This document shows, one piece after another, positions 1 to 12,821 of a stretch of 13,987 nucleotides of DNA. A program made the translations under genes and the position numbers. This DNA comes from a virus. Taxonomy: Duplodnaviria > Heunggongvirae > Uroviricota > Caudoviricetes. The stretch is taken from IMG/VR virus record IMGVR_UViG_2548876869_000004, positions 1 to 13,987 of that record; one strand, written 5' to 3'. Every line of letters begins with the position of its first letter. The stretch's first letter is position 1. The notes below the pieces were generated by a model, which searched no databases, was not told the origin of the DNA, and saw only the letters and a list, made by a program, of their open reading frames with translations.

Positions 1-45
1 TAACACGAAATCCTGCGAACTGGCAAAATGTAAGTGAATAAAAGT

Positions 46-85
46 AAAAACCCCGTTTGTTGGCAGCAAGCGGGGTTTTGTTTTT
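46..85 (+). terminator. Rho-independent terminator-like hairpin
   Basis: Arms aaaaccccg (47-55) and cggggtttt (71-79) are complementary around a 15-nt loop, followed by T-tract ttttgttttt (76-85). It sits just after an in-frame TAA at 1-3. The A-tract/T-tract symmetry could allow bidirectional function. Confidence 0.4.
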
Positions 86-150
86 ATGGCAGTAAGCTAT
101 GGGAGGCTGCCTTGATTGATTTTAGCAAACTGATTAGGGAGTTGCGACTC

Positions 151-246
151 ATGATTAGTCAATTACCAAACTGGAAATTTTTGCTGGTCTGGAGCATCCC
201 TTTTTTATGGGTAGTATCCCAGTTAATTGTGGCAATTAAGGGGTAG
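151..246 (+). CDS. Very short hydrophobic ORF (31 aa), putative single-TM peptide
   Basis: ATG at 151 preceded by aggga; product MISQLPNWKFLLVWSIPFLWVVSQLIVAIKG has one hydrophobic stretch with a C-terminal lysine. First of four tightly packed mini-ORFs. No recognisable homology. Confidence 0.2.
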   Translation: MISQLPNWKFLLVWSIPFLWVVSQLIVAIKG

Positions 247-248
247 CT

Positions 249-380
249 ATGTCAGACAAACTCATAACGCCGGCAAAGGTCCTGTGTGTGATTGTCGGTA
301 TTTCATTTTCACTAATGCTGGTTGCTCTTTTTCTGTCCCTCGCCTGGGTGATGTTGTCTTCGTCGGGGCTGCTGGGGTGA
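249..380 (+). CDS. Very short hydrophobic ORF (43 aa), putative membrane peptide
   Basis: ATG at 249 with aagggg 6 nt upstream; product MSDKLITPAKVLCVIVGISFSLMLVALFLSLAWVMLSSSGLLG. Its stop overlaps the next ORF's GTG as GTGA (377-380). Confidence 0.25.
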   Translation: MSDKLITPAKVLCVIVGISFSLMLVALFLSLAWVMLSSSGLLG

Positions 381-499
381 CAGTGACTGATGACATCAGC
401 AGAGCGCTGGCTTTTGCTATTAAGTGGGTGGCTGTTGGTATTGCTGTGTCTCCGATGCTGTATGGGCTGGCAAAACTGGTCATTGCGCTGAAATCGTGA
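377..499 (+). CDS. Very short hydrophobic ORF (about 40 aa), paralogue of the 511-597 ORF
   Basis: GTG at 377 (alternative GTG at 383); product ...TDDISRALAFAIKWVAVGIAVSPMLYGLAKLVIALKS. Both peptide and DNA resemble the next mini-ORF (RALAFAIKWVAVGIAV versus [16 protein letters not shown]). Confidence 0.25.
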   Translation: MTVTDDISRALAFAIKWVAVGIAVSPMLYGLAKLVIALKS

Positions 500-510
500 A
501 CTTTAAAAAG

Positions 511-597
511 ATGAGTGCTGAACTTATTCGGGCAATGGCATTTGCCATTCGTATTGTGGCCATTGCTGTTCTGGTCTGGACAATCCGTTGGTGGTGA
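511..597 (+). CDS. Very short hydrophobic ORF (28 aa), paralogue of the 377-499 ORF
   Basis: ATG at 511; product [28 protein letters not shown]. Stop TGA 595-597 lies 1 nt before the Rz ATG at 599. Confidence 0.2.
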
Positions 598-598
598 T

Positions 599-1066
599 AT
601 GAACCGTGTTCTGTGTGTGGTGATTATTGTCCTGCTGGTAGCCTGTGGTGTGCTTAGTCTGGGGCTGAATCATTACCGTGATAACGCCATTACCTACAAA
701 GCCCAGCGCGACAAAAATGTCAGAGAACTGAAGCTGGCGAACGCGGCAATTACTGACATGCAGATGCGTCAGCGTGATGTTGCTGCGCTCGATGCAAAAT
801 ACACGAAGGAGTTAGCTGATGCGAAAGCTGAAAATGATGCTCTTCGTCGCAAGCTTGATAATGGTGGCAGGGTGCTCGTCAAAGGAAAATGCCCTGTGCC
901 ATCCTCAGCCGAAACCTCCAGCGCCTCCGGCATGGGCAATGATGCCACCGTCGAACTCTCTCCAGTTGCTGGACGAAACGTTCTCGGTATCCGGGACGGA
1001 ATTATCCGCGACCAAACAGCACTGAGAACGCTTCAGGAATACATCAGGACGCAATGCCTTCGATGA
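599..1066 (+). CDS. Rz: Rz i-spanin (inner-membrane spanin subunit)
   Basis: From ATG 599: [83 protein letters not shown]... Long stretches match lambda Rz as I recall it ([58 protein letters not shown]). N-terminal TM helix plus coiled-coil periplasmic domain. The ORF-track start at 515 is an upstream in-frame extension. Confidence 0.9.
819..1025 (+). CDS. Rz1: Rz1 o-spanin (outer-membrane lipoprotein), embedded in Rz in the +1 frame
   Basis: [44 protein letters not shown]... has a lipobox (MVAG|C) and a proline-rich stretch, like lambda Rz1 (MLKLKMML...VVGC...PPPPPAW). It lies wholly inside Rz in another frame, the classic embedded spanin arrangement. Confidence 0.85.
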
Positions 1067-1239
1067 TAGCGATAATTTTACTCATCATCCTTCACATCTG
1101 GCTCTGTAGACAGGGTGGTGATCACTTCTGGAGTGAATCCAGATTTAACATCTCATTGCTGATGCTTGATATTGAGCATCTTGCGCGCGGTAAGGGGCTG
1201 CGTTGAGATAAGAGCCAGTCATCACAAACACCAGGATTT

Positions 1240-1266
1240 AGCCTCGCATTCGCGGGGCTTTTTATT
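1240..1266 (+). terminator. Rho-independent terminator-like hairpin downstream of Rz
   Basis: Stem agcctcgc (1240-1247) pairs with gcggggct (1252-1259), with one G-U wobble, around loop attc; followed by ctttttatt T-tract (to 1266). Confidence 0.45.
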
Positions 1267-1284
1267 GCAACAAAGGTAAAGACG

Positions 1285-1572
1285 ATGGATGAAGAATATC
1301 GTAAAGACCTGCAATTGTGGTTTGGCCTGACGCATGCGTCGTTCTGCGTGATGCCGAGAGTATTCATGGAGGCTATGCCGCAAGAATGGCAAGAGAAGAT
1401 GGCGCAGTTGCTTTTTGAGTATGGCGACACGATCAAAACGGATGTCTGCGGAGTTCACTGCTGTTTCGTTACTGCCAAAGACGGCAACAACCGCTTTATG
1501 AGGATGCCAGAAGATATTCTGAACTATCGTCATCCCCGGCGTGAGTTCATCGAATCATTTCTGAAGAAGTAG
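1285..1572 (+). CDS. Hypothetical small cysteine-containing protein (95 aa)
   Basis: ATG 1285; product MDEEYRKDLQLWFGLTHASFCVMPRVFMEAMPQEWQEKMAQLLFEYGDTIKTDVCGVHCCFVTAKDGNNRFMRMPEDILNYRHPRREFIESFLKK has a natural mixed-charge composition and a C-x2-H-C-C cluster. It occupies the lambda bor position but is not Bor-like and is on the opposite strand to lambda bor. I cannot assign a family from memory. Confidence 0.6.
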   Translation: MDEEYRKDLQLWFGLTHASFCVMPRVFMEAMPQEWQEKMAQLLFEYGDTIKTDVCGVHCCFVTAKDGNNRFMRMPEDILNYRHPRREFIESFLKK

Positions 1573-1629
1573 CCATTACAAAGTCTATCTGCGGGGGGCT
1601 TGATAAAGGTGCTTTCACCTCGCTTAGCA

Positions 1630-1638
1630 TGGTATGTT
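1630..1638 (+). promoter_or_regulatory. Possible extended -10 promoter element (TGgTATGTT)
   Basis: tggtatgtt at 1630-1638 resembles an extended -10 (TGnTATAAT) about 28 nt upstream of the ATG at 1666. No convincing -35. Weak, sequence-only call. Confidence 0.2.
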
Positions 1639-1665
1639 CTGACTACCAACTTTTTGGGAGGACAC

Positions 1666-1890
1666 ATGGAACTGATAAATGGACGGCCAGGCAGAGATTT
1701 TATAGTGGGAACATATACCTACTCAGAAATTAAAGATCTTAACTTCATGGCTAAGGAAGAGAAAAGAGCTCGTGAAGAGCTAAAGCATCGGGGTTACGAA
1801 TTGGCGTATATCAAGGCGGACTCTGAATGTAACGGGATGTTTGTCAGGGCGTACCGGGTCTATACTGACAAAGCGCCATCTAATGTCTAA
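1666..1890 (+). CDS. Hypothetical small protein (74 aa), AT-rich cargo gene
   Basis: ATG 1666 with GGAGG at 1657-1661; product MELINGRPGRDFIVGTYTYSEIKDLNFMAKEEKRAREELKHRGYELAYIKADSECNGMFVRAYRVYTDKAPSNV. Visibly lower GC than the structural genes. The TTG-initiated extension from 1600 in the ORF track is unlikely. Confidence 0.55.
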   Translation: MELINGRPGRDFIVGTYTYSEIKDLNFMAKEEKRAREELKHRGYELAYIKADSECNGMFVRAYRVYTDKAPSNV

Positions 1891-1933
1891 ATATACCTCG
1901 GGCGGTTTTTTACGTTCATTACCGTACGCAATT

Positions 1934-1996
1934 ACAGCAGGCATTCATTGAGTGCCTGTGATAATGATTTATCAACGTGCTTGCAAACGGTATTCT
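1934..1996 (+). promoter_or_regulatory. Putative promoter/operator region upstream of the 134-aa gene
   Basis: Inverted repeat cagcaggca (1934-1942) / tgcctgtg (1951-1958) with one bulge, then ttatca (1969-1974), a 16-nt spacer and tattct (1991-1996) as sigma70-like -35/-10, about 30 nt upstream of the GTG at 2026. Confidence 0.25.
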
Positions 1997-2025
1997 AGAC
2001 CTCCAATTATCCTAAGGAGGTTTTT

Positions 2026-2430
2026 GTGGTTAAAAATTTAGAATACATGAAGGGGATGCTTGAGGTATTTTTGAAAGCGAAAACTCCCTTTATATCTACA
2101 AAAGACTTAGCTAATGCGGGGTACGATATCTGCTCGAATGAAGGGATGTTTCATTATCTACTTCTTATTGAGCAAGGTTATATCAGTAATAAAGATCTAA
2201 TAACGGATGACATAACTAAACTGGGCTACATGCGCCATTGTGGCCATATGCTAGATATGGGTACCGACGTGCGACTATCTGCGCAGGGACAAGAATTCGC
2301 CCAGGCATTAAATGAACCTACGGTTTTTGAGAAATTAAAGTCAATGAGCGATGCCCCTTTGAGTACAATCAAAGATGTTGGGCTGGAGTTAACGAAGGCC
2401 TATTTAAAGAAGAAATTTGGCCTCGAGTAA
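2026..2430 (+). CDS. Hypothetical protein (134 aa), AT-rich cargo gene immediately upstream of cos
   Basis: GTG start 2026 with strong SD AAGGAGG (2014-2020); product MVKNLEYMKGMLEVFLKAKTPFISTKDLANAGYDICSNEGMFHYLLLIEQGYISNKD...KKKFGLE. Clearly AT-rich relative to flanking phage genes. Family unassigned; a small helical or winged-helix-type fold is speculation only. Confidence 0.65.
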   Translation: MVKNLEYMKGMLEVFLKAKTPFISTKDLANAGYDICSNEGMFHYLLLIEQGYISNKDLITDDITKLGYMRHCGHMLDMGTDVRLSAQGQEFAQALNEPTVFEKLKSMSDAPLSTIKDVGLELTKAYLKKKFGLE

Positions 2431-2612
2431 AATTTCTACCCTCACGAGTTAAGTTGTTTTGTGATGGTTATTCGCAATGAATATCTTTAGCCACTGGCAT
2501 TTGCTGGTGGTTTTTTTATGCGCATCCCTCGCGCACCACAAAGGGAGTCTTTCAGTAGTGATTCTGAATATCAGTGTGATAAACGTATTTGACAATCATT
2601 ATCATTTTTGGT

Positions 2613-2683
2613 GGGTCCTTTCCGGCGATCCGACAGGTTACGGGGCGGCGACCTCGCGGTTTTTCACTATTTATGAAAATTTT
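2613..2683 (+). other. cos: cos site: cosQ-proximal region, cosN (12-nt cohesive end GGGCGGCGACCT at 2643-2654) and start of cosB
   Basis: gggtcctttccggcgatccgacaggttacg|gggcggcgacct|cgcggtttttcactatttatgaaaatttt is near-identical to the phage lambda right-end/left-end junction as I recall it (...GGGTCCTTTCCGGTGATCCGACAGGTTACG + GGGCGGCGACCTCGCGGGTTTTCGCTATTTATGAAAATTTT). It sits about 180 bp upstream of Nu1, as in lambda. Confidence 0.85.
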
Positions 2684-2750
2684 TCAGGGAAAATCGTGTC
2701 GGTACTTCTCGAATATAACTTTTTGTTTTTTTTAATATTGCATCCGTAAA

Positions 2751-2805
2751 GGTCCGACATGAAAGTGTCCGAAAATGCCTTTTTCTGGCGTTTTCATGTC
2801 GGGCC
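2751..2805. promoter_or_regulatory. Inverted repeat within cosB, candidate terminase small-subunit binding sites
   Basis: Arm ggtccgacatgaaa (2751-2764) and arm tttcatgtcgggcc (2792-2805) are reverse complements at 13 of 14 positions, separated by 27 bp, just upstream of the Nu1 start at 2831. Lambda R2/R1 are similarly inverted. Confidence 0.4.
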
Positions 2806-2830
2806 TTGTATTTGATAATGGGTTGTTTTC

Positions 2831-3379
2831 ATGAAGGTTAATAAAAAGAGGCTTGCCGAAATTTTCAACGTGGACCCGCGGACGATTGAACGCTGGCAGT
2901 CTCAGGGACTCCCTTGCGCCTCCAAAGGTAGTAAGGGCATTGAATCTGTATTTGATACTGCCATGGTAATTCAGTGGTATGCGCAGAGGGAAACTGATAT
3001 CGAAAACGAAAAGCTCCGCAAAGAACTGGACGATTTGCGTGCGGCAGCGGAGTCAGATTTACAACCCGGCACCATTGACTATGAACGCTACCGGCTCACA
3101 AAAGCGCAGGCAGATGCGCAGGAACTGAAAAATGCCCGTGAAGACGGAGTAGTGCTGGAAACTGAACTGTTTACCTTCATTCTGCAACGTGTGGCACAGG
3201 AGATTTCGGGGATACTTGTGCGTGTGCCGTTGACATTACAGCGTAAATATCCGGACATTTCACCATCACACCTTGATGTGGTGAAAACTGAAATCGCGAA
3301 AGCCTCCAATGTTTCAGCTAAGGCCGGTGAAAACGTGGGCGGGTGGATCGATGATTTCAGACGCGCAGAAGGCAGCTAA
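2831..3379 (+). CDS. nu1: Terminase small subunit (gpNu1)
   Basis: [28 protein letters not shown]...[60 protein letters not shown] closely parallels lambda Nu1 (MEVNKKQLADIF...[48 protein letters not shown]). N-terminal winged HTH. Directly downstream of cos. Confidence 0.95.
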
Positions 3380-5279
3380 TGCAGCCGGTGCGATAGCAAC
3401 AGGGCTTTTATCTCTCATTATTCCTGTTCCACTGACGACAGTTCAGTGGGCCAATAAACATTATTACCTTCCTAAAGAGTCGTCTTATACCCCGGGGCGG
3501 TGGGAAACACTGCCGTTTCAGGTTGGCATCATGAACTGTATGGGCAACGATTTGATTCGCACGGTTAACCTGATTAAATCTGCCCGTGTTGGTTATACAA
3601 AGATGTTGCTGGGAGTGGAGGCTTATTTTATTGAGCATAAATCACGCAACAGCCTTCTTTTTCAGCCCACGGACTCAGCTGCTGAAGATTTTATGAAATC
3701 TCATGTTGAGCCAACGATAAGGGAGGTTCCTGCGTTGCTGGAGCTGGCTCCATGGTTCGGAAGAAAACACCGCGATAATACGCTCACCCTGAAGCGTTTT
3801 TCCTCCGGTGTGGGTTTCTGGTGTCTGGGGGGAGCGGCAGCAAAAAACTACCGTGAAAAATCCGTGGATGTGGTCTGTTATGACGAGCTTTCCTCGTTCG
3901 AACCGGATGTTGAAAAAGAGGGTTCGCCAACCCTGCTGGGGGATAAACGTATTGAGGGCTCTGTATGGCCCAAATCCATTCGCGGCTCGACGCCTAAAAT
4001 CAAAGGCTCCTGCCAGATCGAAAAAGCCGCTAACGAGTCGGCACACTTCATGCGTTTTTATGTGCCCTGTCCGCACTGTGGGGAGGAGCAGTATCTGAAA
4101 TTTGGCGATGAGTCCACGCCTTTTGGGCTTAAATGGGAGAAGGACAGCCCCGAAAGCGTTTTCTACCTCTGTGAGCATCATGGCTGCGTGATCCATCAGT
4201 CTGAACTGGACCAGAGTAACGGGCGGTGGATCTGTGAAAACACGGGCATGTGGACCCGTGACGGTCTGACGTTTTTCAGCGCTGCGGGTAATGAAATTCC
4301 GCCGCCGCGCTCCATCACTTTCCATATCTGGACGGCGTACAGTCCGTTCACCACCTGGGTACAGATTGTCTATGACTGGCTGGATGCACTGAAAGATCCC
4401 AACGGCCTGAAAACCTTTGTGAACACCACGCTGGGCGAGACCTGGGAAGAGGCTGTGGGCGAAAAACTCGATCACCAGATACTGATGGATAAGGTTGTGC
4501 GTTACACGGCGGCGGTGCCTGCCCGGGTGGTTTATCTGACGGCGGGCATTGACTCGCAGCGAAACCGTTTTGAGATGTATGTCTGGGGATGGGCTCCGGG
4601 AGAGGAAGCCTTTCTGGTGGATAAAATCATCATTATGGGGCGTCCCGATGAGGAAGAGACGCTGTTACGTGTGGATGCGGCGATCAACAAAAAATACCGC
4701 CATGCAGACGGAACCGAAATGACTATTTCCCGTGTCTGCTGGGACATCGGGGGGATCGATGGCGAAATCGTTTATCAGAGGTCAAAAAAACACGGTGTTT
4801 TCCGGGTGCTGCCGGTAAAAGGCGCATCTGTCTATGGCAAGCCGGTGATCACCATGCCAAAAACCCGCAATCAGCGGGGCGTGTATCTGTGTGAAGTGGG
4901 GACGGACACCGCAAAAGAAATTCTCTATGCCCGTATGAAAGCCGATCCCACGCCTGCGGATGAAGCCACGTCGTATGCCATCCGTTTTCCTGATGATCCG
5001 GAGATTTTTTCGCAGACAGAGGCGCAGCAACTGGTCGCGGAAGAGCTTGTGGAGAAGTGGGAAAAAGGAAAGATGCGTCTGCTGTGGGATAACAAAAAGC
5101 GGCGTAACGAAGCGCTGGACTGCCTGGTGTATGCCTACGCGGCATTACGTGTGTCCGTGCAACGCTGGCAGCTTGATCTGGCTGTACTGGCAAAATCCCG
5201 GGAAGAAGAGACGACCCGGCCAACCCTTAAAGAACTGGCAGCGAAGCTGTCCGGAGGAGTGAATGGTTACAGTCGCTGA
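3351..5279 (+). CDS. A: Terminase large subunit (gpA)
   Basis: From ATG 3351 (overlapping the Nu1 3' end as in lambda): MISDAQK...[25 protein letters not shown]...[22 protein letters not shown]...[14 protein letters not shown]...KRRNEALDC. Recognisable lambda gpA motifs throughout. The ORF-track start at 3309 is an upstream extension. Confidence 0.95.
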
Positions 5280-5469
5280 ACTGCAGGCGCTGCGTCAGGC
5301 GCGCCTTGATTTATTAACCGGTAAACGGGTGGTGTCTGTCCAGAAAGATGGTCGCAGAATTGAATATACGGCGGCTTCTCTGGATGAGCTTAACCGGGCG
5401 ATCAATGATGCGGAGTCGGTACTGGGGACAACCCGGCGTCGCCGTCGTCCGCTGGGAGTGAGGTTATGA
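5263..5469 (+). CDS. W: Head-tail joining / head completion protein gpW
   Basis: 68 aa; LLTGKRVVSVQKDGRRIEYTAASLDEL resembles lambda gpW ([27 protein letters not shown]). Start overlaps the A stop; stop overlaps the B start (ATGA). Confidence 0.9.
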   Translation: MVTVAELQALRQARLDLLTGKRVVSVQKDGRRIEYTAASLDELNRAINDAESVLGTTRRRRRPLGVRL

Positions 5470-7058
5470 AACGAACGCCTGTCCTGATTGATGTGAACGG
5501 CGTTCCGCTTCGTGAGAGTCTCAGCTACAACGGGGGCGGTGCAGGATTTGGCGGGCAAATGGCTGAGTGGTTGCCACCGGCGCAGAGTGCCGATGCGGCC
5601 CTGCTGCCCGCGTTGCGTCTGGGGAATGCCCGGGCAGATGATCTGGTGCGCAATAACGGAATAGCGGCTAATGCGGTGGCTCTGCATAAGGATCACATTG
5701 TCGGGCATATGTTTCTGATCAGCTACCGTCCGAACTGGCGCTGGCTGGGGATGCGGGAGACCGCAGCAAAAAGCTTTGTCGATGAGGTGGAGGCGGCCTG
5801 GTCGGAATACGCCGAAGGGATGTTTGGCGAGATCGACGTGGAAGGAAAACGCACGTTCACGGAATTTATCCGTGAAGGTGTGGGCGTTCATGCGTTTAAC
5901 GGCGAAATCTTTGTGCAGCCGGTCTGGGATACGGAAACCACGCAGTTATTCCGTACGCGTTTTAAAGCCGTGAGTCCGAAACGGGTGGACACGCCTGGAC
6001 ACGGTATGGGGAACCGTTTTCTGCGGGCCGGTGTGGAGGTCGATCGATATGGCCGTGCCGTCGCGTACCATATTTGTGAGGATGATTTTCCGTTCTCTGG
6101 TAGTGGACGATGGGAACGGATCCCGCGTGAACTTCCCACCGGGCGTCCGGCTATGCTGCATATTTTCGAGCCGGTGGAGGACGGGCAGACCCGTGGGGCT
6201 AATCAGTTTTACAGCGTCATGGAACGGCTGAAGATGCTCGATTCCCTGCAGGCAACACAGCTTCAGTCGGCCATAGTGAAGGCGATGTATGCAGCGACGA
6301 TTGAAAGTGAACTTGATACCGAAAAGGCCTTTGAATATATCGCCGGCGCGCCACAGGAGCAGAAGGATAATCCGCTTATTAATATTCTGGAGAAGTTCTC
6401 CAGCTGGTATGACACGAATCACGTGACGCTGGGCGGTGTCAAAATTCCGCACCTTTTCCCTGGTGATGATCTGAAACTGCAGACAGCGCAGGATTCAGAC
6501 AATGGATTTTCGGCGCTTGAACAGGCGCTGCTGCGGTATATCGCCGCCGGTCTTGGCGTTTCCTACGAACAGTTGTCCCGTGATTACTCGAAGGTCAGTT
6601 ACTCAAGTGCCCGCGCCTCCGCCAATGAGTCGTGGCGCTATTTTATGGGGCGGCGAAAATTTATTGCGGCCCGACTGGCCACGCAGATGTTTTCCTGCTG
6701 GCTGGAAGAGGCACTTCTTCGGGGGATTATTCGTCCGCCACGGGCACGTTTTGATTTTTATCAGGCGCGATCAGCCTGGTCACGGGCAGAGTGGATTGGT
6801 GCCGGAAGAATGGCCATTGACGGGCTCAAGGAAGTCCAGGAATCAGTGATGCGCATTGAGGCCGGACTGAGCACGTATGAGAAAGAGCTGGCGCTGATGG
6901 GCGAGGATTATCAGGACATTTTCCGCCAGCAGGTCAGGGAATCTGCAGAGCGGGAAAAAGCCGGACTCTCACGCCCGGTGTGGATAGCGCAGGCGTATCA
7001 GCAGCAGATAGCGGAGAGTCGCAGGCCGGAAGAGGAGACAACACCACGTGAGACGTAA
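5466..7058 (+). CDS. B: Portal protein (gpB)
   Basis: 530 aa with extended lambda gpB-like blocks: GNARADDLVRNNG, FEPVEDGQTRGANQFYSVMERLKMLDSLQATQLQSAIVKAMYAATIESELDT, LLRYIAAGLGVSYEQLSRDYS, WIGAGRMAIDGLKEVQESVMRIEAGLSTYEKE. Confidence 0.95.
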   Translation: MKRTPVLIDVNGVPLRESLSYNGGGAGFGGQMAEWLPPAQSADAALLPALRLGNARADDLVRNNGIAANAVALHKDHIVGHMFLISYRPNWRWLGMRETAAKSFVDEVEAAWSEYAEGMFGEIDVEGKRTFTEFIREGVGVHAFNGEIFVQPVWDTETTQLFRTRFKAVSPKRVDTPGHGMGNRFLRAGVEVDRYGRAVAYHICEDDFPFSGSGRWERIPRELPTGRPAMLHIFEPVEDGQTRGANQFYSVMERLKMLDSLQATQLQSAIVKAMYAATIESELDTEKAFEYIAGAPQEQKDNPLINILEKFSSWYDTNHVTLGGVKIPHLFPGDDLKLQTAQDSDNGFSALEQALLRYIAAGLGVSYEQLSRDYSKVSYSSARASANESWRYFMGRRKFIAARLATQMFSCWLEEALLRGIIRPPRARFDFYQARSAWSRAEWIGAGRMAIDGLKEVQESVMRIEAGLSTYEKELALMGEDYQDIFRQQVRESAEREKAGLSRPVWIAQAYQQQIAESRRPEEETTPRET

Positions 7059-8553
7059 TCTTTCACACATTATTGCCGCAGCATTCAATGAACCGCTGCT
7101 TCTGGAGCCCGCCTATGCGCGGGTTTTCTTTTGCGCGCTCGGGCGCGAGATGGGGGCAGCAAGTCTTTCGGTACCACAACAACAGGTACAGCTTGATGCT
7201 CCCGGAATGCTGGCTGAAACGGACGAGTACATGGCCGGAGGTAAACGACCGGCCCGTGTTTACCGGGTGGTGAACGGTATTGCGGTACTGCCGGTGACCG
7301 GCACGCTGGTGCACCGGCTGGGCGGTATGCGGCCATTTTCCGGAATGACAGGCTATGACGGCATTGTCGCCTGTCTTCAGCAGGCAATGGCAGATAGCCA
7401 GGTGCGGGGCGTACTGCTGGACATTGACAGTCCGGGCGGGCAGGCCGCCGGCGCGTTTGACTGCGCTGACATGATTTACCGCCTCCGTCAGCAGAAGCCG
7501 GTCTGGGCACTGTGCAATGACACGGCCTGTTCTGCAGCCATGCTGCTGGCGTCGGCCTGCTCCCGACGGCTGGTTACTCAGACATCCCGTATCGGCTCCA
7601 TTGGCGTGATGATGAGCCATGTCAGCTATGCCGGTCATCTGGCGCAGGCCGGGGTGGATATCACGCTGATTTATGCCGGGGCGCACAAGGTGGATGGCAA
7701 TCAGTTTGAAGCCTTACCGGCAGAGGTGCGTCAGGACATGCAGCAGCGGGTTGATGCGGCGCACCGGATGTTTGCCGAAAAAGTGGCGATGTATACGGGG
7801 CTGTCTGTGGAAGCTGTCACGGGGACAGAGGCTGCCGTTTTTGAAGGTCAGTCCGCTATTAAGGCCGGACTGGCGGATGAATTAATCAATGCGTCGGATG
7901 CCATCAGCGTGATGGCTGCGGCGCTGAACACTCATGATACAGGAGGCACTATGCCGCAATTAACTGCAACGGAAGCTGCCGCGCAGGAGAACCAGCGAGT
8001 GATGGGGATCCTGACGTGTCAGGAAGCGAAAGGACGTGAACAGCTTGCCACGATGCTGGCAGGACAACAGGGCATGAGCATTGAACAGGCCCGGGCGATT
8101 CTGGCCGCGGCGGCACCACAGCAGCCGGTGGCATCCGCGCAGAGTGAAGCCGATCGCATTATGGCGTGTGAAGAAGCGAAAGGTCGTGAACAACTGGCGG
8201 CAACGCTGGCGGCGATGCCGGAGATGACGGTGGAAAAAGCCCGCCCGATCTTGGCTGCCTCACCGCAGGCGAATGCCGGGCCCTCACTTCGTGATCAGAT
8301 CATGGCCCTGGATGAGGCAAAAGGGGCAGAAGCGCAGGCTGAAAAACTGGCGGCCTGCCCGGGAATGACCGTGGAGAACGCCCGGGCTGTGCTGGCTGCG
8401 GGATCAGGTAAGGCCGAACCGGTCTCTGCATCCACAACCGCCCTGTTTGAACATTTCATGGCGAATCATTCACCGGCAGCGGTGCGGGGTGGCGTGTCAC
8501 AGACGTCAGCAGACGGTGATGCGGACGTGAAAATGCTCATGGCCATGCCATGA
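7048..8553 (+). CDS. C: Head maturation protease / scaffold fusion (gpC-like, S49/ClpP-type) with Nu3-like C-terminal region
   Basis: GTG start 7048 overlapping the B stop; AAFNEPLLLEPAYARVFFCAL, VNGIAVLPVTG, MTGYDGIV, DSPGG.AAGAFDCADMI, KPVWAL, SRRLVTQTSRIGSIGVMMSH, ITLIYAGAHKVDGN, YTGLSV, GLADEL all parallel lambda gpC. The C-terminal part holds three tandem copies of a Nu3-like motif. Confidence 0.9.
   Translation: MRRNLSHIIAAAFNEPLLLEPAYARVFFCALGREMGAASLSVPQQQVQLDAPGMLAETDEYMAGGKRPARVYRVVNGIAVLPVTGTLVHRLGGMRPFSGMTGYDGIVACLQQAMADSQVRGVLLDIDSPGGQAAGAFDCADMIYRLRQQKPVWALCNDTACSAAMLLASACSRRLVTQTSRIGSIGVMMSHVSYAGHLAQAGVDITLIYAGAHKVDGNQFEALPAEVRQDMQQRVDAAHRMFAEKVAMYTGLSVEAVTGTEAAVFEGQSAIKAGLADELINASDAISVMAAALNTHDTGGTMPQLTATEAAAQENQRVMGILTCQEAKGREQLATMLAGQQGMSIEQARAILAAAAPQQPVASAQSEADRIMACEEAKGREQLAATLAAMPEMTVEKARPILAASPQANAGPSLRDQIMALDEAKGAEAQAEKLAACPGMTVENARAVLAAGSGKAEPVSASTTALFEHFMANHSPAAVRGGVSQTSADGDADVKMLMAMP
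7951..8553 (+). CDS. nu3: Putative Nu3-like scaffolding protein from an internal in-frame start within C
   Basis: In-frame ATG at 7951 preceded by AGGAGG (7941-7946); downstream ENQRVMGILTCQEAKGREQ matches the lambda Nu3 N-terminal region (AENSRIMGILNCEEAHGREEQ). A nested scaffold gene is established for lambda C/Nu3; here it is inferred from the RBS plus homology. Confidence 0.5.
   Translation: MPQLTATEAAAQENQRVMGILTCQEAKGREQLATMLAGQQGMSIEQARAILAAAAPQQPVASAQSEADRIMACEEAKGREQLAATLAAMPEMTVEKARPILAASPQANAGPSLRDQIMALDEAKGAEAQAEKLAACPGMTVENARAVLAAGSGKAEPVSASTTALFEHFMANHSPAAVRGGVSQTSADGDADVKMLMAMP
7996..8420 (+). repeat. Intragenic tandem triplication (about 141-159 nt units) encoding three Nu3-like scaffold repeats
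   Basis: Three successive units: RVMGILTCQEAKGREQLATMLAGQQGMSIEQARAILAAAAPQQ / RIMACEEAKGREQLAATLAAMPEMTVEKARPILAASPQAN / QIMALDEAKGAEAQAEKLAACPGMTVENARAVLAAGSGKA, starting at about 7996, 8155 and 8296. The DNA is diverged but clearly related (for example gaagcgaaagg(a/t)cgtgaaca). Confidence 0.6.
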
Positions 8554-8589
8554 AGTCAGTGCTGACCATCAATATGAGGTTTTAACAAA

Positions 8590-8937
8590 ATGGTGACGAA
8601 AACCATCACTGAACAGCGTGCGGAAGTACGTATTTTTGCTGGTAATGATCCGGCTCATACCGCCACAGGCAGCAGCGGGATTTCTTCTGCAACACCGGCT
8701 CTGACGCCCCTGATGCTGGATGAAGCCACCGGGAAACTGGTGGTCTGGGATGGACAGAAAGCCGGTAGTGCGGTTGGCATACTGGTACTGCCGCTTGAAG
8801 GCACAGAGACGGTGCTGACCTATTACAAGTCGGGGACCTTTGCGACGGAGGCAATCCGCTGGCCTGACAGTGTGGATGAACACAAAAAGGCAAATGCCTT
8901 TGCCGGCACAGCCCTGAGTCACGCGGCTCTGCCGTAA
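8590..8937 (+). CDS. D: Head decoration protein (gpD)
   Basis: 115 aa; NDPAHTAT, TPLMLD, KLVVWDG, AVGILV, YYKSGTF, KKANAFAGTA mirror lambda gpD (SDPAHTATA, MTPLMLD, KLVAWDG, AVGILA, FYKSGTF, KKRTAFAGTA). Confidence 0.9.
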   Translation: MVTKTITEQRAEVRIFAGNDPAHTATGSSGISSATPALTPLMLDEATGKLVVWDGQKAGSAVGILVLPLEGTETVLTYYKSGTFATEAIRWPDSVDEHKKANAFAGTALSHAALP

Positions 8938-8945
8938 CACGTTAT

Positions 8946-8965
8946 CAGGCCACCATGGTGGCCTG
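8946..8965. repeat. Perfect 20-bp palindrome (caggccacca|tggtggcctg) in the D-E intergenic region
   Basis: The sequence at 8946-8965 is its own reverse complement. It lies between the D stop (8937) and the E start (8995). Confidence 0.6.
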
Positions 8966-8994
8966 ACTGATTTCTGAATGAAAGGAACTGATTT

Positions 8995-10023
8995 ATGGGA
9001 TTGTTTACGACCCGCCAGTTACTCGGTTATACCGAACAAAAAGTTAAATTCCGTGCGCTGTTTCTGGAGCTGTTTTTCCGCCGTACGGTGAATTTCCACA
9101 CCGAAGAGGTGATGCTGGACAAAATTACCGGAAAAACGCCGGTGGCGGCCTATGTCTCCCCGATCGTTGAAGGAAAAGTGCTGCGCCATCGTGGTGGTGA
9201 AACCCGCGTGTTGCGTCCGGGCTACGTCAAGCCGAAACACGAATTTAATTACCAGCAGGCGGTTGAGCGCCTTCCTGGTGAAGATCCGGCTCAGCTGAAC
9301 GACCCGGCCTACCGTCGTCTGCGTATCATTACCGATAACCTCAAACAGGAAGAGCACGCCATTGTCCAGGTGGAAGAAATGCAGGCGGTGAATGCCGTGC
9401 TGTATGGCAAATACACCATGGAAGGGGATCAGTTTGATACTGTCGAGGTGGATTTCGGGCGCTCTGAAGGAAATAACATTGAGCAGGCTGACGGTAAAAA
9501 ATGGTCTGAGCAGGACCGTGATACGTTTGATCCGACGCATGATATTGACCTCTACTGCGATCAGGCCAGCGGCCTTGTGAATATCGCCATTATGGACGGT
9601 ACGGTCTGGCGTCTGCTGAATGGCTTTAAGCTGTTCCGCGAAAAACTGGATACCCGTCGCGGCTCAAATTCACAACTCGAAACGGCAGTGAAAGATCTGG
9701 GCGCAGTGGTGTCCTTCAAGGGGTATTACGGCGATCTGGCCATTGTGGTGGCGAAAACGTCTTATGTGGCAGAGGACGGTACCGAAAAACGTTATCTGCC
9801 GGAGGGCATGCTGGTGCTGGGGAATACGGCGGCAGAGGGGATTCGTTGCTATGGTGCCATTAAGGATGCACAGGCGTTGTCTGAAGGAGTGGTGGCTTCT
9901 TCCCGTTACCCGAAACACTGGCTGACCGTGGGCGATCCGTCCTGTGAATTCACCATGACGCAGTCCGCTCCGCTGATGGTGCTGCCGGATCCGGATGAGT
10001 TTGTGGTGGTACAGGTGAAATAA
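8995..10023 (+). CDS. E: Major capsid protein (gpE)
   Basis: 342 aa; YVSPIV.G.V.R.RGG, PGYVKPKHE, RRLP.EDP, DPAYRR.RII, VEEMQAV.AVL.GKYTM.G, KLDTRRGSNS.LETAVKDLG, YPK.W.T.GDP..EFTM.QSAPLM all match lambda gpE. Confidence 0.95.
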   Translation: MGLFTTRQLLGYTEQKVKFRALFLELFFRRTVNFHTEEVMLDKITGKTPVAAYVSPIVEGKVLRHRGGETRVLRPGYVKPKHEFNYQQAVERLPGEDPAQLNDPAYRRLRIITDNLKQEEHAIVQVEEMQAVNAVLYGKYTMEGDQFDTVEVDFGRSEGNNIEQADGKKWSEQDRDTFDPTHDIDLYCDQASGLVNIAIMDGTVWRLLNGFKLFREKLDTRRGSNSQLETAVKDLGAVVSFKGYYGDLAIVVAKTSYVAEDGTEKRYLPEGMLVLGNTAAEGIRCYGAIKDAQALSEGVVASSRYPKHWLTVGDPSCEFTMTQSAPLMVLPDPDEFVVVQVK

Positions 10024-10030
10024 TCCGTGA

Positions 10031-10060
10031 GCGGGGGCGAAATGCCCCCGTGTCTTTTTT
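10031..10060 (+). terminator. GC-rich hairpin plus T-tract immediately after the major capsid gene
   Basis: cgggggc (10032-10038) pairs with gcccccg (10044-10050) around loop gaaat, followed by tgtctttttt (10051-10060). Lies between the E stop and the FI RBS. Confidence 0.4.
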
Positions 10061-10074
10061 CACAGGAGGCTGAG

Positions 10075-10458
10075 ATGGCAACAAAAGAAGAAAATCTGAA
10101 TCGTCTTCGTCAACTGGCTGGCCTGCTGGGGCGCGAGGCGGATATGTCGGGGAGTGCTGCGGATATTGCTCAACGTGTGTCTGAGTGGGAAGAGGAGCTT
10201 GCTGTTTCCCCGGAGGGCATTATGCACTCTGATGAGAGCGGGGCTGATCAAAATCACACAGACGATGGTGAGCAGTTGAACAACACGGATGCTCCGGATG
10301 ATGTTAAAGCCGTCCGGGTACGGAAGTGCCTGCAAGTAATGGGGTATTGCCCGGAGACAGGTCGTCCCGTTGAGCTGGCGTTACGGGGTATGCGTGTTCT
10401 GGTGCCATCATCACTGGCAACGGCCATGATACAGCACGGAACGGCTGAATATGCGTGA
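10075..10458 (+). CDS. FI: DNA-packaging accessory protein gpFI-like
   Basis: ATG 10075 preceded by AGGAGG; MATKEENLNRLRQLAGLLGREADMSGSAADIAQRVSEWEEEL... has a highly acidic linker region and sits in the lambda FI position between E and FII. Similarity to lambda FI is modest. The ORF-track start at 10027 lies inside the upstream hairpin. Confidence 0.8.
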   Translation: MATKEENLNRLRQLAGLLGREADMSGSAADIAQRVSEWEEELAVSPEGIMHSDESGADQNHTDDGEQLNNTDAPDDVKAVRVRKCLQVMGYCPETGRPVELALRGMRVLVPSSLATAMIQHGTAEYA

Positions 10459-10804
10459 TTTTCAGAATGCCTTTGATGCTGCCCTCGCCGGGGTAGACAG
10501 TACGATCGTTGAAGTGATGGGGCTCTGTGCGCAGTTCACCTCGGGGGCACAGTGTGGCAGCGAAGTTCAGGGGGTTTTTGACGATCCGGAGTCGCTGGGG
10601 TTTGCCGGTGGCGGGGTCCGTATTGAAGGAAGCAGCCCGTCATTATTTGTGCGGACGGATACGGTTCGTGCCGTGCGGCGTGGTGACACGCTGACCATTA
10701 ATGGTGAGATATTCTGGGTGGATCGTGTTTCTCCGGATGACGGGGGCAGCTGTTATCTCTGGCTCAACCGTGGTCAACCACCCGCAGTTAACCGGCGACG
10801 ATAA
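10451..10804 (+). CDS. FII: Head-tail connector protein gpFII
   Basis: 117 aa; GVFDDPE, GGGVRIEGSSPSLFVRTD.VR..RRGDTLTI, FWVDRVSPDDGGSCYLWL.RG.PPAVNRRR is near-identical to the lambda gpFII C-terminal half. Confidence 0.9.
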   Translation: MRDFQNAFDAALAGVDSTIVEVMGLCAQFTSGAQCGSEVQGVFDDPESLGFAGGGVRIEGSSPSLFVRTDTVRAVRRGDTLTINGEIFWVDRVSPDDGGSCYLWLNRGQPPAVNRRR

Positions 10805-10819
10805 ACGCAGGGTGAAATT

Positions 10820-11353
10820 ATGGCGATAAAAGGGCTTGATCAGGCGATTGACAATCTGAGCCGGGTTCGTAAAAACGCCATTCCGGCGGCTTCAGCAATG
10901 GCCATTAACCGCGTGGCCACAACGGCGATTAATCAGTCTTCATCACAGGTTGCCCGGGAGACAAAGGTTCGCCGGAAACTGGTTAAGGAACGGTCCAGAC
11001 TGAAACGGGCGACGGTCAGAAATCCGAATGCCAGAATTATCGTTAACCGCGGTGATCTCCCTGTGATTAAGCTGGGGATCAGGATGCTGGGGCGTCGCCC
11101 GAACAGCATACTTAAAGCCGGTCAGCATCGGTATCAGCGGGCATTTATTCAGCGATTAAAAAATGGTCGCTGGCATGTCATGCAGCGTGTGGCCGGGAAA
11201 AACCGTTACCCCATTGATGTGGTGAAAATCCCGATGGCGGCCCCACTGAAACAGGCATTTGATGAGAATGTTGACCGTATCCGGCGTGAACGCCTGCCTA
11301 AAGAACTGGCATACGCGCTGAAACAACAACTGAGGATTGCAATAAAACGATGA
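10820..11353 (+). CDS. Z: Tail completion protein gpZ
   Basis: 177 aa; MAIKGLDQAIDNLSR, AMAINRVA, SQVARETKVRRKLVKER.RLKRATV.NP.ARI.VNRGDLPVIKLG, QRLKNGRWHVMQRVAGKNRYPIDVVKIPMA, RIRRERLPKEL match lambda gpZ. Confidence 0.9.
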   Translation: MAIKGLDQAIDNLSRVRKNAIPAASAMAINRVATTAINQSSSQVARETKVRRKLVKERSRLKRATVRNPNARIIVNRGDLPVIKLGIRMLGRRPNSILKAGQHRYQRAFIQRLKNGRWHVMQRVAGKNRYPIDVVKIPMAAPLKQAFDENVDRIRRERLPKELAYALKQQLRIAIKR

Positions 11354-11745
11354 AACACACTGACATTCGTGCCGCAGTGCTGGATGCACTCGAGCAGCAT
11401 GAACACGGGGCGACGCTGTTTGATGGTCGCCCCGTTGTTTTTGACGAAGAGGATTTTCCTGCGATCGCGGTTTATCTGACGGATGCAGAGTATACCGGTG
11501 AAGAGCTGGATGCAGATACCTGGCGGGCCACGCTGCATATTGAGGTGTTTTTACCGGCACAGGTACCGGATTCAGAGCTTGAACAGTGGATGGAAAGCCG
11601 GATTTACCCGGCGATGACCGCGATCCCGGCACTGGCAGGACTGATTACCACGATGGTTACGCAGGGCTATGAGTATCGTCGTGATGACGATATGGCGTTA
11701 TGGAGTTCTGCAGATCTGACTTATTCCATTACATACGAGATGTGA
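11350..11745 (+). CDS. U: Tail terminator protein gpU
   Basis: 131 aa; [90 protein letters not shown] match lambda gpU. Start overlaps the Z stop (ATGA). Confidence 0.9.
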
Positions 11746-11752
11746 GGACGAT

Positions 11753-12505
11753 ATGGCAACACCAAATCCCCTTGAGCCGGTAAAAGGTGCCGGTACCACT
11801 CTGTGGGTTTACAACGGCAAGGGTGATGCTTATGCAAACCCGTTGTCAGACGATGACTGGCAGCGACTGGCTAAGGTGAAGGATCTGACGCCGGGCGAGA
11901 TGACGGCAGAATCCTACGATGATAACTACCTGGATGATGAAGACGCGGACTGGACCGCGACCGGGCAGGGGCAGAAATCTGCAGGTGATACCAGTTTTAC
12001 GCTGGCCTGGAAACCGGGAGAGGAAGGCCAGAAAGGGCTTATAGGCTGGTTTGAAAGCGGCGATGTCCGGGCCTATAAAATCCGTTTTCCGAATGGCACG
12101 GTGGATGTGTTTCGTGGCTGGGTCAGCAGTATCGGTAAGGCCGTGACGGCGAAAGAAGTGATCACCCGCACGGTGAAAGTCACTAACGTGGGTAAACCTT
12201 CTGTAGCGGAAGAACGCAGCAAAATTACGCCGGTCAGTGCGATTAAGGTGACGCCGACATCCGGTACGGTGGCAAAAGGGAAAACAACCACCCTGACGGT
12301 TTCTTTTGAGCCGGAAAGTGCAACCGACAAGACGTTCAGAGCGGTTTCCGCCGATCCGTCGAAAGCCACCATTAGTGTGAAAGATATGACAATTACGGTA
12401 AACGGCGTGGCGACAGGTAAGGTGCAGATCCCTGTGGTGAGCGGAAATGGTCAGTTCGCCGCAGTGGCTGAAGTCACCGTTACTGAAGCGGGCGCTGCAG
12501 GGTAA
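11753..12505 (+). CDS. V: Major tail tube protein (gpV) with C-terminal Ig-like domain
   Basis: 250 aa; [113 protein letters not shown] match lambda gpV. Confidence 0.95.
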
Positions 12506-12518
12506 ACGGAGGTAATAC

Positions 12519-12821
12519 ATGTTTCTGAAAACAGAACAATTTGAATATAACGGTGTGTCTGTCACGCTTTCCGAATTGTCTGCGCTGCAGCGTATCGAGC
12601 ATCTTGCCCTCCTGAAACGGCGTGCAGAACAGGCAGAATCCTGCGGCAACCTGCTCACCACCTGGCCTGCCGATGCCATTGCCCGGGCGGAAGACGTGGT
12701 GTTGTGCCTGTCCGGGATGATCGAAGCTGTTCGTCCGGATACTGATATTACTGAAGTGGCGAAAAATAACACGCTGACTGATGATGATTTTTCTGCGGGA
12801 AAGTCTTCGACGGCGAGCTGA
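12519..12821 (+). CDS. G: Tail assembly chaperone gpG (zero-frame product)
   Basis: 100 aa; MFLKTEQFEYNGVSVTLSELSALQRIEHLALLKRRAEQAES matches the lambda gpG N-terminus (MFLKTESFEHNGVTVTLSELSALQRIEHLALMKRQAEQAES). It is shorter than lambda G as I recall it (about 140 aa). Confidence 0.85.
   Translation: MFLKTEQFEYNGVSVTLSELSALQRIEHLALLKRRAEQAESCGNLLTTWPADAIARAEDVVLCLSGMIEAVRPDTDITEVAKNNTLTDDDFSAGKSSTAS

What the first reader, a model, noticed from the sequence alone, without database searches (positions are those of the whole stretch)
2613..2830. Lambda-identical cosN with a divergent cosB carrying an inverted repeat
The cosN 12-mer and its immediate flanks are almost base-for-base lambda, which places the virion chromosome ends at 2642/2643. 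The Nu1-proximal cosB region differs from lambda and contains a 14-bp inverted repeat (2751-2764 / 2792-2805, 13 of 14 matching) with a partial third copy in the spacer (gtccgaaaatg at about 2767-2777). Nu1 also diverges from lambda in its C-terminal half. Together this suggests an altered packaging specificity paired with a conserved nicking site.
Basis: partly seen in the sequence, partly recalled or inferred. Interest (0 to 1): 0.4.

Follow-up and report, generated by a model that had tools for sequence, protein, structure and literature searches.

The report
Phage 21-type cos packaging site

Summary
[quoted passage not shown] GGGTCCT (2613-2619) is cosQ. The 13/14 inverted repeat is the annotated pair of small-terminase boxes R2 (2749-2764, inverted) and R1 (2792-2808) of cosB-21. 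The true third box is R3 (2692-2707), with the IHF site I1 (2716-2728) between R3 and R2. It is the 5' extension (TTTTCnG) that all three R units share. The adjacent gene 1 protein is 180/182 identical to phage 21 TerS and 53% identical to lambda Nu1.

"Same nicking site, different packaging specificity" is the published lambda/21 result: identical cosQ and cosN, but more than 1000-fold preference for own DNA. [quoted passage not shown] The divergent C-terminus matches the equally divergent N-terminus of the large subunit. Natural chimeric TerS proteins found next to 21-type R boxes support this.

This is already known and of low interest. The same cos, at 99% identity or more, is in 475 E. 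coli genome records.

The parts
2613..2619 (+). cosQ (GGGTCCT), the packaging-termination subsite, 30 to 24 nt left of the top-strand nick
   Evidence: The sequence is and is identical in lambda and phage 21. The phage 21 record annotates cosQ at 42902-42908 of 42931, the same offset from the right end.
2612..2623 (+). R4, a putative R-like box left of cosN that overlaps cosQ
   Evidence: Transferred from the M81255 annotation at 136-147 (offset +2476), where it is marked 'putative'. Not tested here.
2641..2656 (.). cosN. The 12-base cohesive-end sequence GGGCGGCGACCT is 2643-2654, with 2 symmetric bp on each side. Inferred nicks are at 2642/2643 on the top strand and 2654/2655 on the bottom strand.
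   Evidence: 12/12 identical to lambda and phage 21 and the only copy in the window. The linear phage 21 records X02501, M23775 and OL657228 begin at the base equal to window 2643.
2672..2686 (+). I2, a putative IHF site between cosN and R3
   Evidence: Transferred from the M81255 annotation at 196-210. The sequence is identical to phage 21. Not tested here.
2692..2707 (+). cosB R3, the critical small-terminase (TerS) box, at bp 50-65 from the left end. It carries the 21-type discriminating bases G at bp 56 (2698) and G at bp 59 (2701).
   Evidence: Annotated as cosB R3 in OL657228 and M81255. It matches the R consensus TCRTGTCGGNMCTT with no mismatch at 2694-2707. The role of bp 56 and 59 is from PMC4669245.
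2716..2728 (-). cosB I1, the IHF bending site between R3 and R2
   Evidence: Annotated I1 at 74-86 in OL657228. AAACAAAAAGTTA matches WATCAANNNNTTR with 1 mismatch on the minus strand.
2749..2764 (-). cosB R2, a TerS box inverted relative to R3 and R1.
   Evidence: Annotated R2 at 107-122, 'in opposite orientation to R3 and R1'. Consensus match with no mismatch at 2749-2762 on the minus strand. The core is invariant in the three diverged 21-type cos sites placed in the alignment and is also present in the printed sequences of the two others.
2792..2808 (+). cosB R1, a TerS box.
   Evidence: Annotated R1 at 150-166. Consensus match with no mismatch at 2794-2807 on the plus strand.
2767..2776 (-). 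5' extension of the R2 unit (ATTTTCGGAC on the minus strand). The equivalent extensions are at 2680-2689 for R3 and 2780-2789 for R1.
   Evidence: The three 30-nt units, aligned in register, share TTTTCnG 14 nt 5' of the core. Six of 14 upstream columns are invariant, which 0.08% of random triples from 2560-2830 reach.
2814..2828 (-). I0, a putative IHF site overlapping the gene 1 ribosome-binding site (RBS 2820-2823)
   Evidence: Transferred from M81255 at 338-352. AAACAACCCATTA at 2816-2828 on the minus strand has 1 mismatch to the IHF consensus. The RBS is annotated at 178-181.
2831..3379 (+). Gene 1, the small terminase subunit TerS (gp1, 182 aa). [quoted passage not shown]
   Evidence: Pfam Phage_Nu1, E = 2.4e-81. 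It is 180/182 identical to phage 21 gp1, differing at A46V and A162S, and 53% identical to lambda Nu1. Residues 1-67 align to the solved lambda TerS DNA-binding domain 1J9I.
3351..5279 (+). Gene 2, the large terminase subunit TerL (642 aa), which nicks cosN and drives translocation
   Evidence: Pfam GpA_ATPase and GpA_nuclease. It is 98% identical to phage 21 gp2 and 65% to lambda gpA, but only 44% to lambda over residues 1-50. The start is taken from the phage 21 annotation at 709-2637.

Best explanation
The region is the cohesive-end site (cos) of a lambda-like prophage with phage 21 packaging specificity.

[quoted passage not shown] The boxes are R3 (2692-2707), R2 (2749-2764, inverted) and R1 (2792-2808). 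Host IHF bends the DNA at I1 (2716-2728), so that R3 and R2 face each other. This anchors the large subunit (gene 2, 3351-5279) on cosN, a fixed distance from R3. The large subunit makes two nicks 12 bp apart, at 2642/2643 and 2654/2655, which creates the 5'-GGGCGGCGACCT cohesive ends. Packaging proceeds rightward and ends at the next cos, which needs cosQ (2613-2619) and cosN.

cosQ and cosN are shared with lambda. The R boxes read TCrTGTCGG here and CGTTTCC in lambda. The TerS recognition helix carries Glu20 and Ser24 here, against Gln20 and Glu24 in lambda. These differences make the site 21-specific rather than lambda-specific.

What is shown here: sequence identity to phage 21, the anatomy of the site, and the families of the two proteins. 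What is inferred by homology from experiments on lambda and 21: binding, bending, nick positions and specificity.
For: - Window 2643-2835 is 100% identical to bp 1-193 of three phage 21 records. The 30 nt left of the nick are 28/30 identical to phage 21 and 29/30 to lambda.
- GenBank annotation of phage 21 places cosN, R3, I1, R2 (opposite orientation), R1, the RBS, gene 1 and gene 2 at positions that map onto the window with a constant offset of 2642.
- Exactly three zero-mismatch R-consensus sites exist in 13,987 bases, in the order plus, minus, plus.
- An IHF-consensus match lies at the annotated I1.
- The inverted repeat is unlikely by chance: 5 of 1000 shuffles reach it.
- TerS is 180/182 identical to phage 21 gp1, and neither substitution is in the recognition helix (17-24) or the wing (31-39) (domain limits from PMC9026076).
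- TerL is 98% identical to phage 21 gp2.
- Published genetics: lambda and 21 share cosQ and cosN but discriminate more than 1000-fold, through R3 bp 56 and 59 and TerS residues 20 and 24 (PMC4669245). The window has G at both bp 56 and bp 59, and Glu20 and Ser24.
- In the three diverged 21-type cos sites that were placed in the alignment, the R-box cores stay conserved while the spacers vary. The two others (L008, L011) were only printed as raw sequence, and their R-box cores are also recognisable there.
Against: No result here contradicts this reading. Three limits apply.

- Nothing was measured on this particular prophage, and whether it is inducible is unknown.
- The two bases that differ from phage 21 between cosQ and cosN (2625 and 2632) and the two TerS substitutions (A46V, A162S) are untested, although they lie outside the known determinants.
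- The sequence left of cosQ is unrelated to phage 21.
Confidence: 0.95

Rival explanations
1. The site is a relic. The prophage is cryptic, so the cos is intact in sequence but no longer used for packaging.
For: The window is 99.9% identical over 1.5 kb to chromosomal prophages of E. coli O104:H4 and relatives. Many enteric prophages are defective. One diverged relative, ETEC4070 (L011), has a truncated TerS pseudogene next to 21-type R boxes.
Against: TerS, TerL and the whole head and tail gene row from 2831 to beyond 13,000 are open reading frames of the expected lengths. The first 7.5 kb right of cos is 96.6% identical to viable phage 21. Every cos subsite is intact. Isolated, plaque-forming phages carry the same cos, for example 4A7, 1W, 3W and ev017.
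Confidence: 0.1
2. The inverted repeat 2749-2807 acts mainly as an RNA hairpin in the late transcript, as a terminator or a translational regulator ahead of gene 1, and not as protein-binding DNA.
For: The arms can pair over 27 nt. The pattern scan lists a terminator-like stem at 2784-2803. The late transcript must read through cos to reach gene 1.
Against: That stem has only 3 G-C pairs. It is followed by CCTTGTATTT, which meets the scan's rule of 5 T in 8 bases but contains no uninterrupted run of T. No Rfam family matches. The same boxes recur a third time, non-palindromically, at R3, which an RNA hairpin does not explain. Published genetics assign the R boxes to TerS binding.
Confidence: 0.03
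3. Despite the divergent cosB, packaging specificity is unchanged, so lambda terminase would use this cos normally.
For: cosQ and cosN and their spacing to R3 are as in lambda. The overall R3-I1-R2-R1 layout is the same.
Against: The site is identical to cosB-21, which lambda terminase discriminates against more than 1000-fold. Lambda TerS Glu24 clashes with the G-C pair at R3 bp 56 (PMC4669245), and the window has G at that position, 2698.
Confidence: 0.02

Closest known systems
cos of Escherichia phage 21 (GenBank X02501, M23775, M81255, OL657228), 21-specific cosB with genes 1 and 2
   Same: All 193 bp from the left cohesive end to the first codons of gene 1 are identical. cosQ is identical. 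The order and orientation of R3, I1, R2 and R1 are the same. TerS is 180/182 identical and TerL 98% identical.
   Different: Two substitutions lie between cosQ and cosN (2625 G for T, 2632 G for A), both matching lambda. There are two conservative TerS substitutions (A46V, A162S). DNA left of cosQ is unrelated to phage 21. The tail-gene part of the window is only 77-82% identical to phage 21.
cos of phage lambda (cosQ-cosN-cosB with R3-I1-R2-R1, Nu1 and A)
   Same: cosQ and the 12-base cohesive end are identical. Sixty-seven of the first 70 nt from cosQ match. R3 is at bp 50-65 with no indel relative to lambda. The architecture is the same, including an inverted R2/R1 pair. The protein families are the same, Phage_Nu1 and GpA.
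   Different: The R-box sequence is TCrTGTCGG here and CGTTTCC in lambda, differing at the specificity positions bp 56 and 59. The TerS recognition helix has E20/S24 here and Q20/E24 in lambda. TerS is 53% identical and TerL 65% identical. The TerS C-terminus (36%) and the TerL N-terminus (44%) have diverged together.
Simple cosB of phage N15 and the PICI cos sites (a single R3-like box)
   Same: A lambda-like cosQ and cosN, followed by a binding box at the R3 position (PMC4669245 and PMC9026076).
   Different: Those sites lack I1, R2 and R1. The window has the full tripartite cosB.

Membership tests
Lambda-like cos site (cosQ-cosN-cosB) | A 12-bp cohesive-end sequence within a partly symmetric cosN | tested here: met
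   GGGCGGCGACCT at 2643-2654 with flanking CG on each side. It is 12/12 identical to lambda and phage 21 and is the only copy in the window.
Lambda-like cos site (cosQ-cosN-cosB) | The 7-bp cosQ about 30 bp upstream of the nick | tested here: met
   GGGTCCT at 2613-2619, at the same offset as the cosQ annotated in phage 21.
Lambda-like cos site (cosQ-cosN-cosB) | A complex cosB: three related R boxes in the order R3-I1-R2-R1, with R2 inverted | tested here: met
   Three zero-mismatch consensus sites at 2694-2707 (+), 2749-2762 (-) and 2794-2807 (+), and none elsewhere below 3 mismatches. This matches the annotation and the published layout.
Lambda-like cos site (cosQ-cosN-cosB) | A fixed cosN-to-R3 distance (R3 at bp 50-65) | tested here: met
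   The alignment to lambda from cosQ through R3 is gapless, and R3 maps to bp 50-65. The sensitivity to spacing is from PMC9026076.
Lambda-like cos site (cosQ-cosN-cosB) | An IHF site between R3 and R2 | tested here: met
   AAACAAAAAGTTA at 2716-2728 (-) has one mismatch to WATCAANNNNTTR and coincides with the annotated I1. Only the sequence match was tested. IHF binding itself cannot be tested here.
Lambda-like cos site (cosQ-cosN-cosB) | Nu1-family TerS and gpA-family TerL genes immediately downstream | tested here: met
   Phage_Nu1 at E = 2.4e-81, and GpA_ATPase plus GpA_nuclease.
Phage 21 packaging-specificity class | 21-type R-box bases at the discriminating positions (R3 bp 56 and 59) | tested here: met
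   G at 2698 and G at 2701, where lambda has T and C. The role of these positions is from PMC4669245.
Phage 21 packaging-specificity class | 21-type TerS recognition helix (residues 17-24, especially 20 and 24) | tested here: met
   RTIERWQS is identical to phage 21 gp1, with E20 and S24. Lambda has RTIQNWQE. The roles of residues 20 and 24 are from PMC4669245.
Phage 21 packaging-specificity class | TerS C-terminus matched to a 21-type TerL N-terminus | tested here: met
   TerS residues 111-182 are identical to phage 21 except A162S. TerL residues 1-100 are 100% identical to phage 21 gp2.
Phage 21 packaging-specificity class | Preferential packaging by 21 terminase over lambda terminase, with virion ends at cosN | not testable with these tools
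   Published for the identical phage 21 sequence (PMC4669245). Not measured for this prophage.

The most novel reading that the evidence does not exclude
The three R boxes may be only the 3' half of a repeat unit of about 28 nt. Each unit also has a conserved 5' module, TTTTCnG, 14 nt upstream of the core. The units are 2680-2709, 2776-2747 (minus strand) and 2780-2809. The module is also recognisable in diverged 21-type sites and, more loosely, in lambda. If it is a functional second contact, the accepted 16-bp definition of the R site would be too short. Candidates for the contact are the second DNA-binding domain of a TerS dimer, a wing or minor-groove contact, or an intrinsic bend. The alternative is that the module is only a trace of the duplication that created the three boxes.
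Probability: 0.12. Interest if true: 0.3.

Novelty: already known. Interest (0 to 1): 0.08.

Why it matters
The finding adds little new biology. The lambda/21 cos pair is the textbook case of how a conserved nicking site is combined with exchangeable recognition modules (cosB and the TerS N-terminus) to give different packaging specificities.

Its practical value is in annotation.
- It fixes the virion ends, the orientation and the terminase specificity class of a prophage family found in many E. coli genomes, including O104:H4-type strains.
- That is useful for predicting which helper phages and phage-inducible islands can exchange packaging machinery.

The natural chimeric TerS proteins seen in relatives illustrate in the wild the modularity that was first shown with laboratory lambda-21 hybrids.

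Tried and rejected
- **The 'partial third copy' (2767-2777) as a fourth R box: rejected.** It does not match the R consensus at up to 3 mismatches. Its sequence is not conserved in diverged 21-type sites, where GTCCGA becomes GCCTGA or GCCTAA. It is better explained as the 5' extension of the R2 unit.
- **The inverted repeat as a transcription terminator or structured RNA: rejected.** The terminator-like match is weak and is not followed by an uninterrupted run of T. There is no Rfam match in the whole window.
- **ORF 2477-2749 (90 aa) across cos as a real gene: rejected.** It has no Pfam hit and RefSeq does not annotate it in O104:H4. Its PHROG hit covers only 28 residues over the conserved cos DNA.
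- **C-terminal TerS divergence as the cause of altered cosB recognition: rejected.** Natural TerS proteins with a lambda-type C-terminus still sit next to 21-type R boxes.
- **Primary papers not available.** I tried to read Sippy et al. 2015 (PMC5006951) and Feiss et al. 2010 (PMC2815929). Neither is held, so their content is cited only through PMC4669245.

Full report
**What is in the sequence**

The stretch 2613-2830 is non-coding. It lies between a 134-aa ORF of unknown function (2026-2430) and a 182-aa ORF that starts at 2831.

- GGGCGGCGACCT is at 2643-2654 and is the only such site in the window, even allowing two mismatches.
- The arms 2751-2764 and 2792-2805 are complementary at 13 of 14 positions.
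- The repeat finder extends them to 27-nt arms, 2749-2775 and 2781-2807, 81% complementary, with 5 nt between them.
- In 1000 dinucleotide-preserving shuffles of 2655-2830, only 5 gave a 13/14 inverted repeat within 60 nt.

**Identity of the region**

A blastn search of the phage collection shows that window 2643-2835 is 100% identical to bp 1-193 of three independent phage 21 records: X02501, M23775 and the complete genome OL657228. All three begin at the base equal to window 2643.

A three-way alignment gives these figures.

| Segment (window) | Identity to lambda | Identity to phage 21 |
|---|---|---|
| 30 nt left of the nick (2613-2642) | 29/30 | 28/30 |
| 12-mer (2643-2654) | 12/12 | 12/12 |
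| 2655-2690 | 29/36 | 36/36 |
| 2691-2830 | 80/143 | 140/140 |

Left of 2612 the window is unrelated to both phages.

The phage 21 records carry curated annotation. With a constant offset of 2642 it places the features as follows.

| Feature | Window coordinates |
|---|---|
| cosQ | 2613-2619 |
| cosN cohesive end | 2643-2654 |
| R3 | 2692-2707 |
| IHF site I1 | 2716-2728 |
| R2 ("in opposite orientation to R3 and R1") | 2749-2764 |
| R1 | 2792-2808 |
| Ribosome-binding site | 2820-2823 |
| Gene 1 | 2831-3379 |
| Gene 2 | 3351-5279 |

**Independent checks of the anatomy**

- A consensus built from the three boxes (TCRTGTCGGNMCTT) finds exactly three zero-mismatch sites in the 13,987 bases, in the order plus, minus, plus. 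The few other hits have three mismatches and lie in coding DNA.
- The IHF consensus WATCAANNNNTTR matches with one mismatch at 2716-2728, which is I1, and at 2816-2828, which is the putative I0 of M81255.
- The alignment to lambda is gapless from cosQ through R3. R3 therefore keeps the bp 50-65 position that the literature describes as critical for spacing (PMC9026076).

**The proteins**

- The ORF at 2831-3379 is a Phage_Nu1 family protein, E = 2.4e-81. It is 180/182 identical to phage 21 gp1, differing at A46V and A162S, and 53% identical to lambda Nu1.
- Its first 67 residues align to the solved lambda TerS DNA-binding domain 1J9I.
- Identity to lambda by segment is 54% for residues 1-68, 74% for 69-110 and 36% for 111-182.
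- The next gene has the GpA ATPase and nuclease domains. It is 98% identical to phage 21 gp2 and 65% identical to lambda gpA. The lowest identity to lambda is at its N-terminus, 44% over residues 1-50.

**How it works (by homology with experiments on lambda and 21)**

PMC9026076 summarises the mechanism.

- IHF bends the DNA at I1, so that a TerS dimer can dock on R3 and R2 across the bend.
- TerS anchors TerL, which nicks cosN at two positions 12 bp apart.
- Termination at the next cos needs cosQ and cosN.
- The C-terminal part of TerS binds TerL.

PMC4669245 adds the specificity result.

- R3 bp 56 and 59 and TerS residues 20 and 24 are key determinants.
- Lambda Glu24 clashes with the G-C pair at bp 56 of R3-21.

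The window has G at bp 56 (2698) and G at bp 59 (2701), where lambda has T and C. Its TerS has Glu20 and Ser24, where lambda has Gln20 and Glu24. Neither of the two substitutions relative to phage 21 gp1 falls in the helix or the wing. I therefore expect 21 specificity, with virion ends at 2642/2643 on the top strand and 2654/2655 on the bottom strand.

1. The third repeat is R3, on the cosN side of I1. It is not the spacer element 'gtccgaaaatg'. That element fails the R consensus and is not conserved in diverged 21-type sites.
   - When the three units are aligned in register over 30 nt (R3 2680-2709, R2 2776-2747 on the minus strand, R1 2780-2809), all share TTTTCnG 14 nt 5' of the core.
   - Six of 14 upstream columns are invariant, which only 0.08% of random triples from the same region reach.
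The same dyad extension is seen in the other 21-type sites.
2. The C-terminal divergence of gp1 is not the cause of altered cosB recognition.
   - In three relatives (a prophage of O157:H7 FRIK804, a prophage of strain DEF10, and phage IdasGreatGrand), TerS has a 21-type N-terminus ([10 protein letters not shown]) fused to a lambda-type C-terminus.
   - All three sit next to 21-type R boxes.
   - The cosB type therefore follows the N-terminal domain. The C-terminus follows the large subunit. This is the same conclusion drawn from laboratory lambda-21 hybrids (PMC9026076).

**Context and distribution**

- Window 1900-3400 is 99.9% identical to chromosomal prophages of E. coli O104:H4 outbreak-lineage strains and relatives.
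- The cos segment itself is at least 99% identical in 475 E. coli complete-genome records, including the type strain ATCC 11775 at 100%. In all, 1183 of 5426 genomes hold a match covering at least 80% of it.
- To the right of cos the window is 96.6% identical to phage 21 for 7.5 kb, then drops to 77-82% in the tail genes.
- To the left, the lysis region resembles other lambdoid and P22-like phages.
- The element is thus a typical mosaic lambdoid prophage with a phage 21 packaging module.

**Rivals**

- An RNA-hairpin or terminator reading of the palindrome is weak. The stem has few G-C pairs and is not followed by an uninterrupted run of T, there is no Rfam family match, and it does not explain R3.
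- A relic cos in a dead prophage cannot be excluded from sequence alone. However, every subsite and every head gene is intact, and free-living phages carry the same cos.
- Unchanged lambda specificity is contradicted by the published discrimination against this exact sequence.

**Verdict**

The main interpretation is supported, with the two corrections above. The feature is already known, and interest is low. The only mildly new point is the extended R unit, and I could not establish whether it is functional or a trace of duplication.

Noticed in passing
window 2680-2709 (+), 2747-2776 (-), 2780-2809 (+): The three R boxes are the 3' part of a longer repeat unit of about 28-30 nt. All three share TTTTCnG 14 nt upstream of the TCrTGTCGG core. 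Six of 14 upstream columns are invariant, which 0.08% of random triples reach. R3 and R1 are exactly 100 nt apart. The extension is also visible in diverged 21-type sites and loosely in lambda.
   Followed up: partly
L009:888-1433, L010:889-1434, L013:919-1464: These are natural chimeric small terminase subunits. They have a phage 21-type N-terminal DNA-binding domain ([10 protein letters not shown]) joined to a lambda-type C-terminal half (…FPELENRHVDFLKRDIIKAMNKAAALDELIPGLLSEYIEQS). Each sits next to 21-type R boxes. They are wild counterparts of the laboratory lambda-21 hybrid terminases.
   Followed up: partly
L008:660-900 and L011:640-880: 21-type R3, R2 and R1 boxes also occur downstream of different cohesive-end sequences. 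In strain OkiPb01716 the cohesive end is GGGCGGCAGCGG instead of GGGCGGCGACCT. In ETEC4070 the cosN position is quite different, and the TerS gene there is a truncated pseudogene.
   Followed up: no
L012:701-940 (phage PhiR5_1): This cosB has R boxes intermediate between lambda and 21 (ATCATGTCAGTTCTT; TCTGATGTCGTTTC on the minus strand; TTCATGTCGTAACC). Its TerS recognition helix is RTIDRWQT (Asp20, Thr24). This may be a third specificity class. Phages of this group (PhiR12_x, PhiR5_1) are otherwise the best overall matches to the window.
   Followed up: no
window 2477-2749 (+): A 90-aa ORF runs straight across cosQ, cosN and R3 and would be cut in virion DNA. It hits phrog_11159 over only 28 residues, and several phage records call a 'hypothetical protein' here. 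It is probably a family of spurious gene calls on conserved cos DNA. RefSeq does not annotate it in O104:H4.
   Followed up: partly
window 2489-2520 (+): A strong terminator-like hairpin (10-pair stem, AGCCACTGGC…GCTGGTGGTT, followed by TTTTTTT) lies downstream of the unknown-function ORF 2026-2430 (phrog_585) and about 100 nt upstream of cosQ. It sits inside what should be the Q-antiterminated late transcript.
   Followed up: no
window 1-2612 versus 2613-13987: There are sharp mosaic boundaries. Identity to phage 21 starts abruptly at cosQ, is 96.6% for 7.5 kb, and then falls to 77-82% in the tail genes from about 10,400 onward. The DNA left of cosQ (Rz/Rz1 region and small ORFs) matches other phages such as HK620, mEp460 and PhiR70_1 instead.
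   Followed up: partly
window 2625, 2626, 2632: Between cosQ and cosN the window is a patchwork. It agrees with lambda against phage 21 at 2625 (G) and 2632 (G), and with phage 21 against lambda at 2626 (C). This suggests recombination or drift inside the 23-bp cosQ-cosN spacer, where the putative R4 box lies.
   Followed up: no
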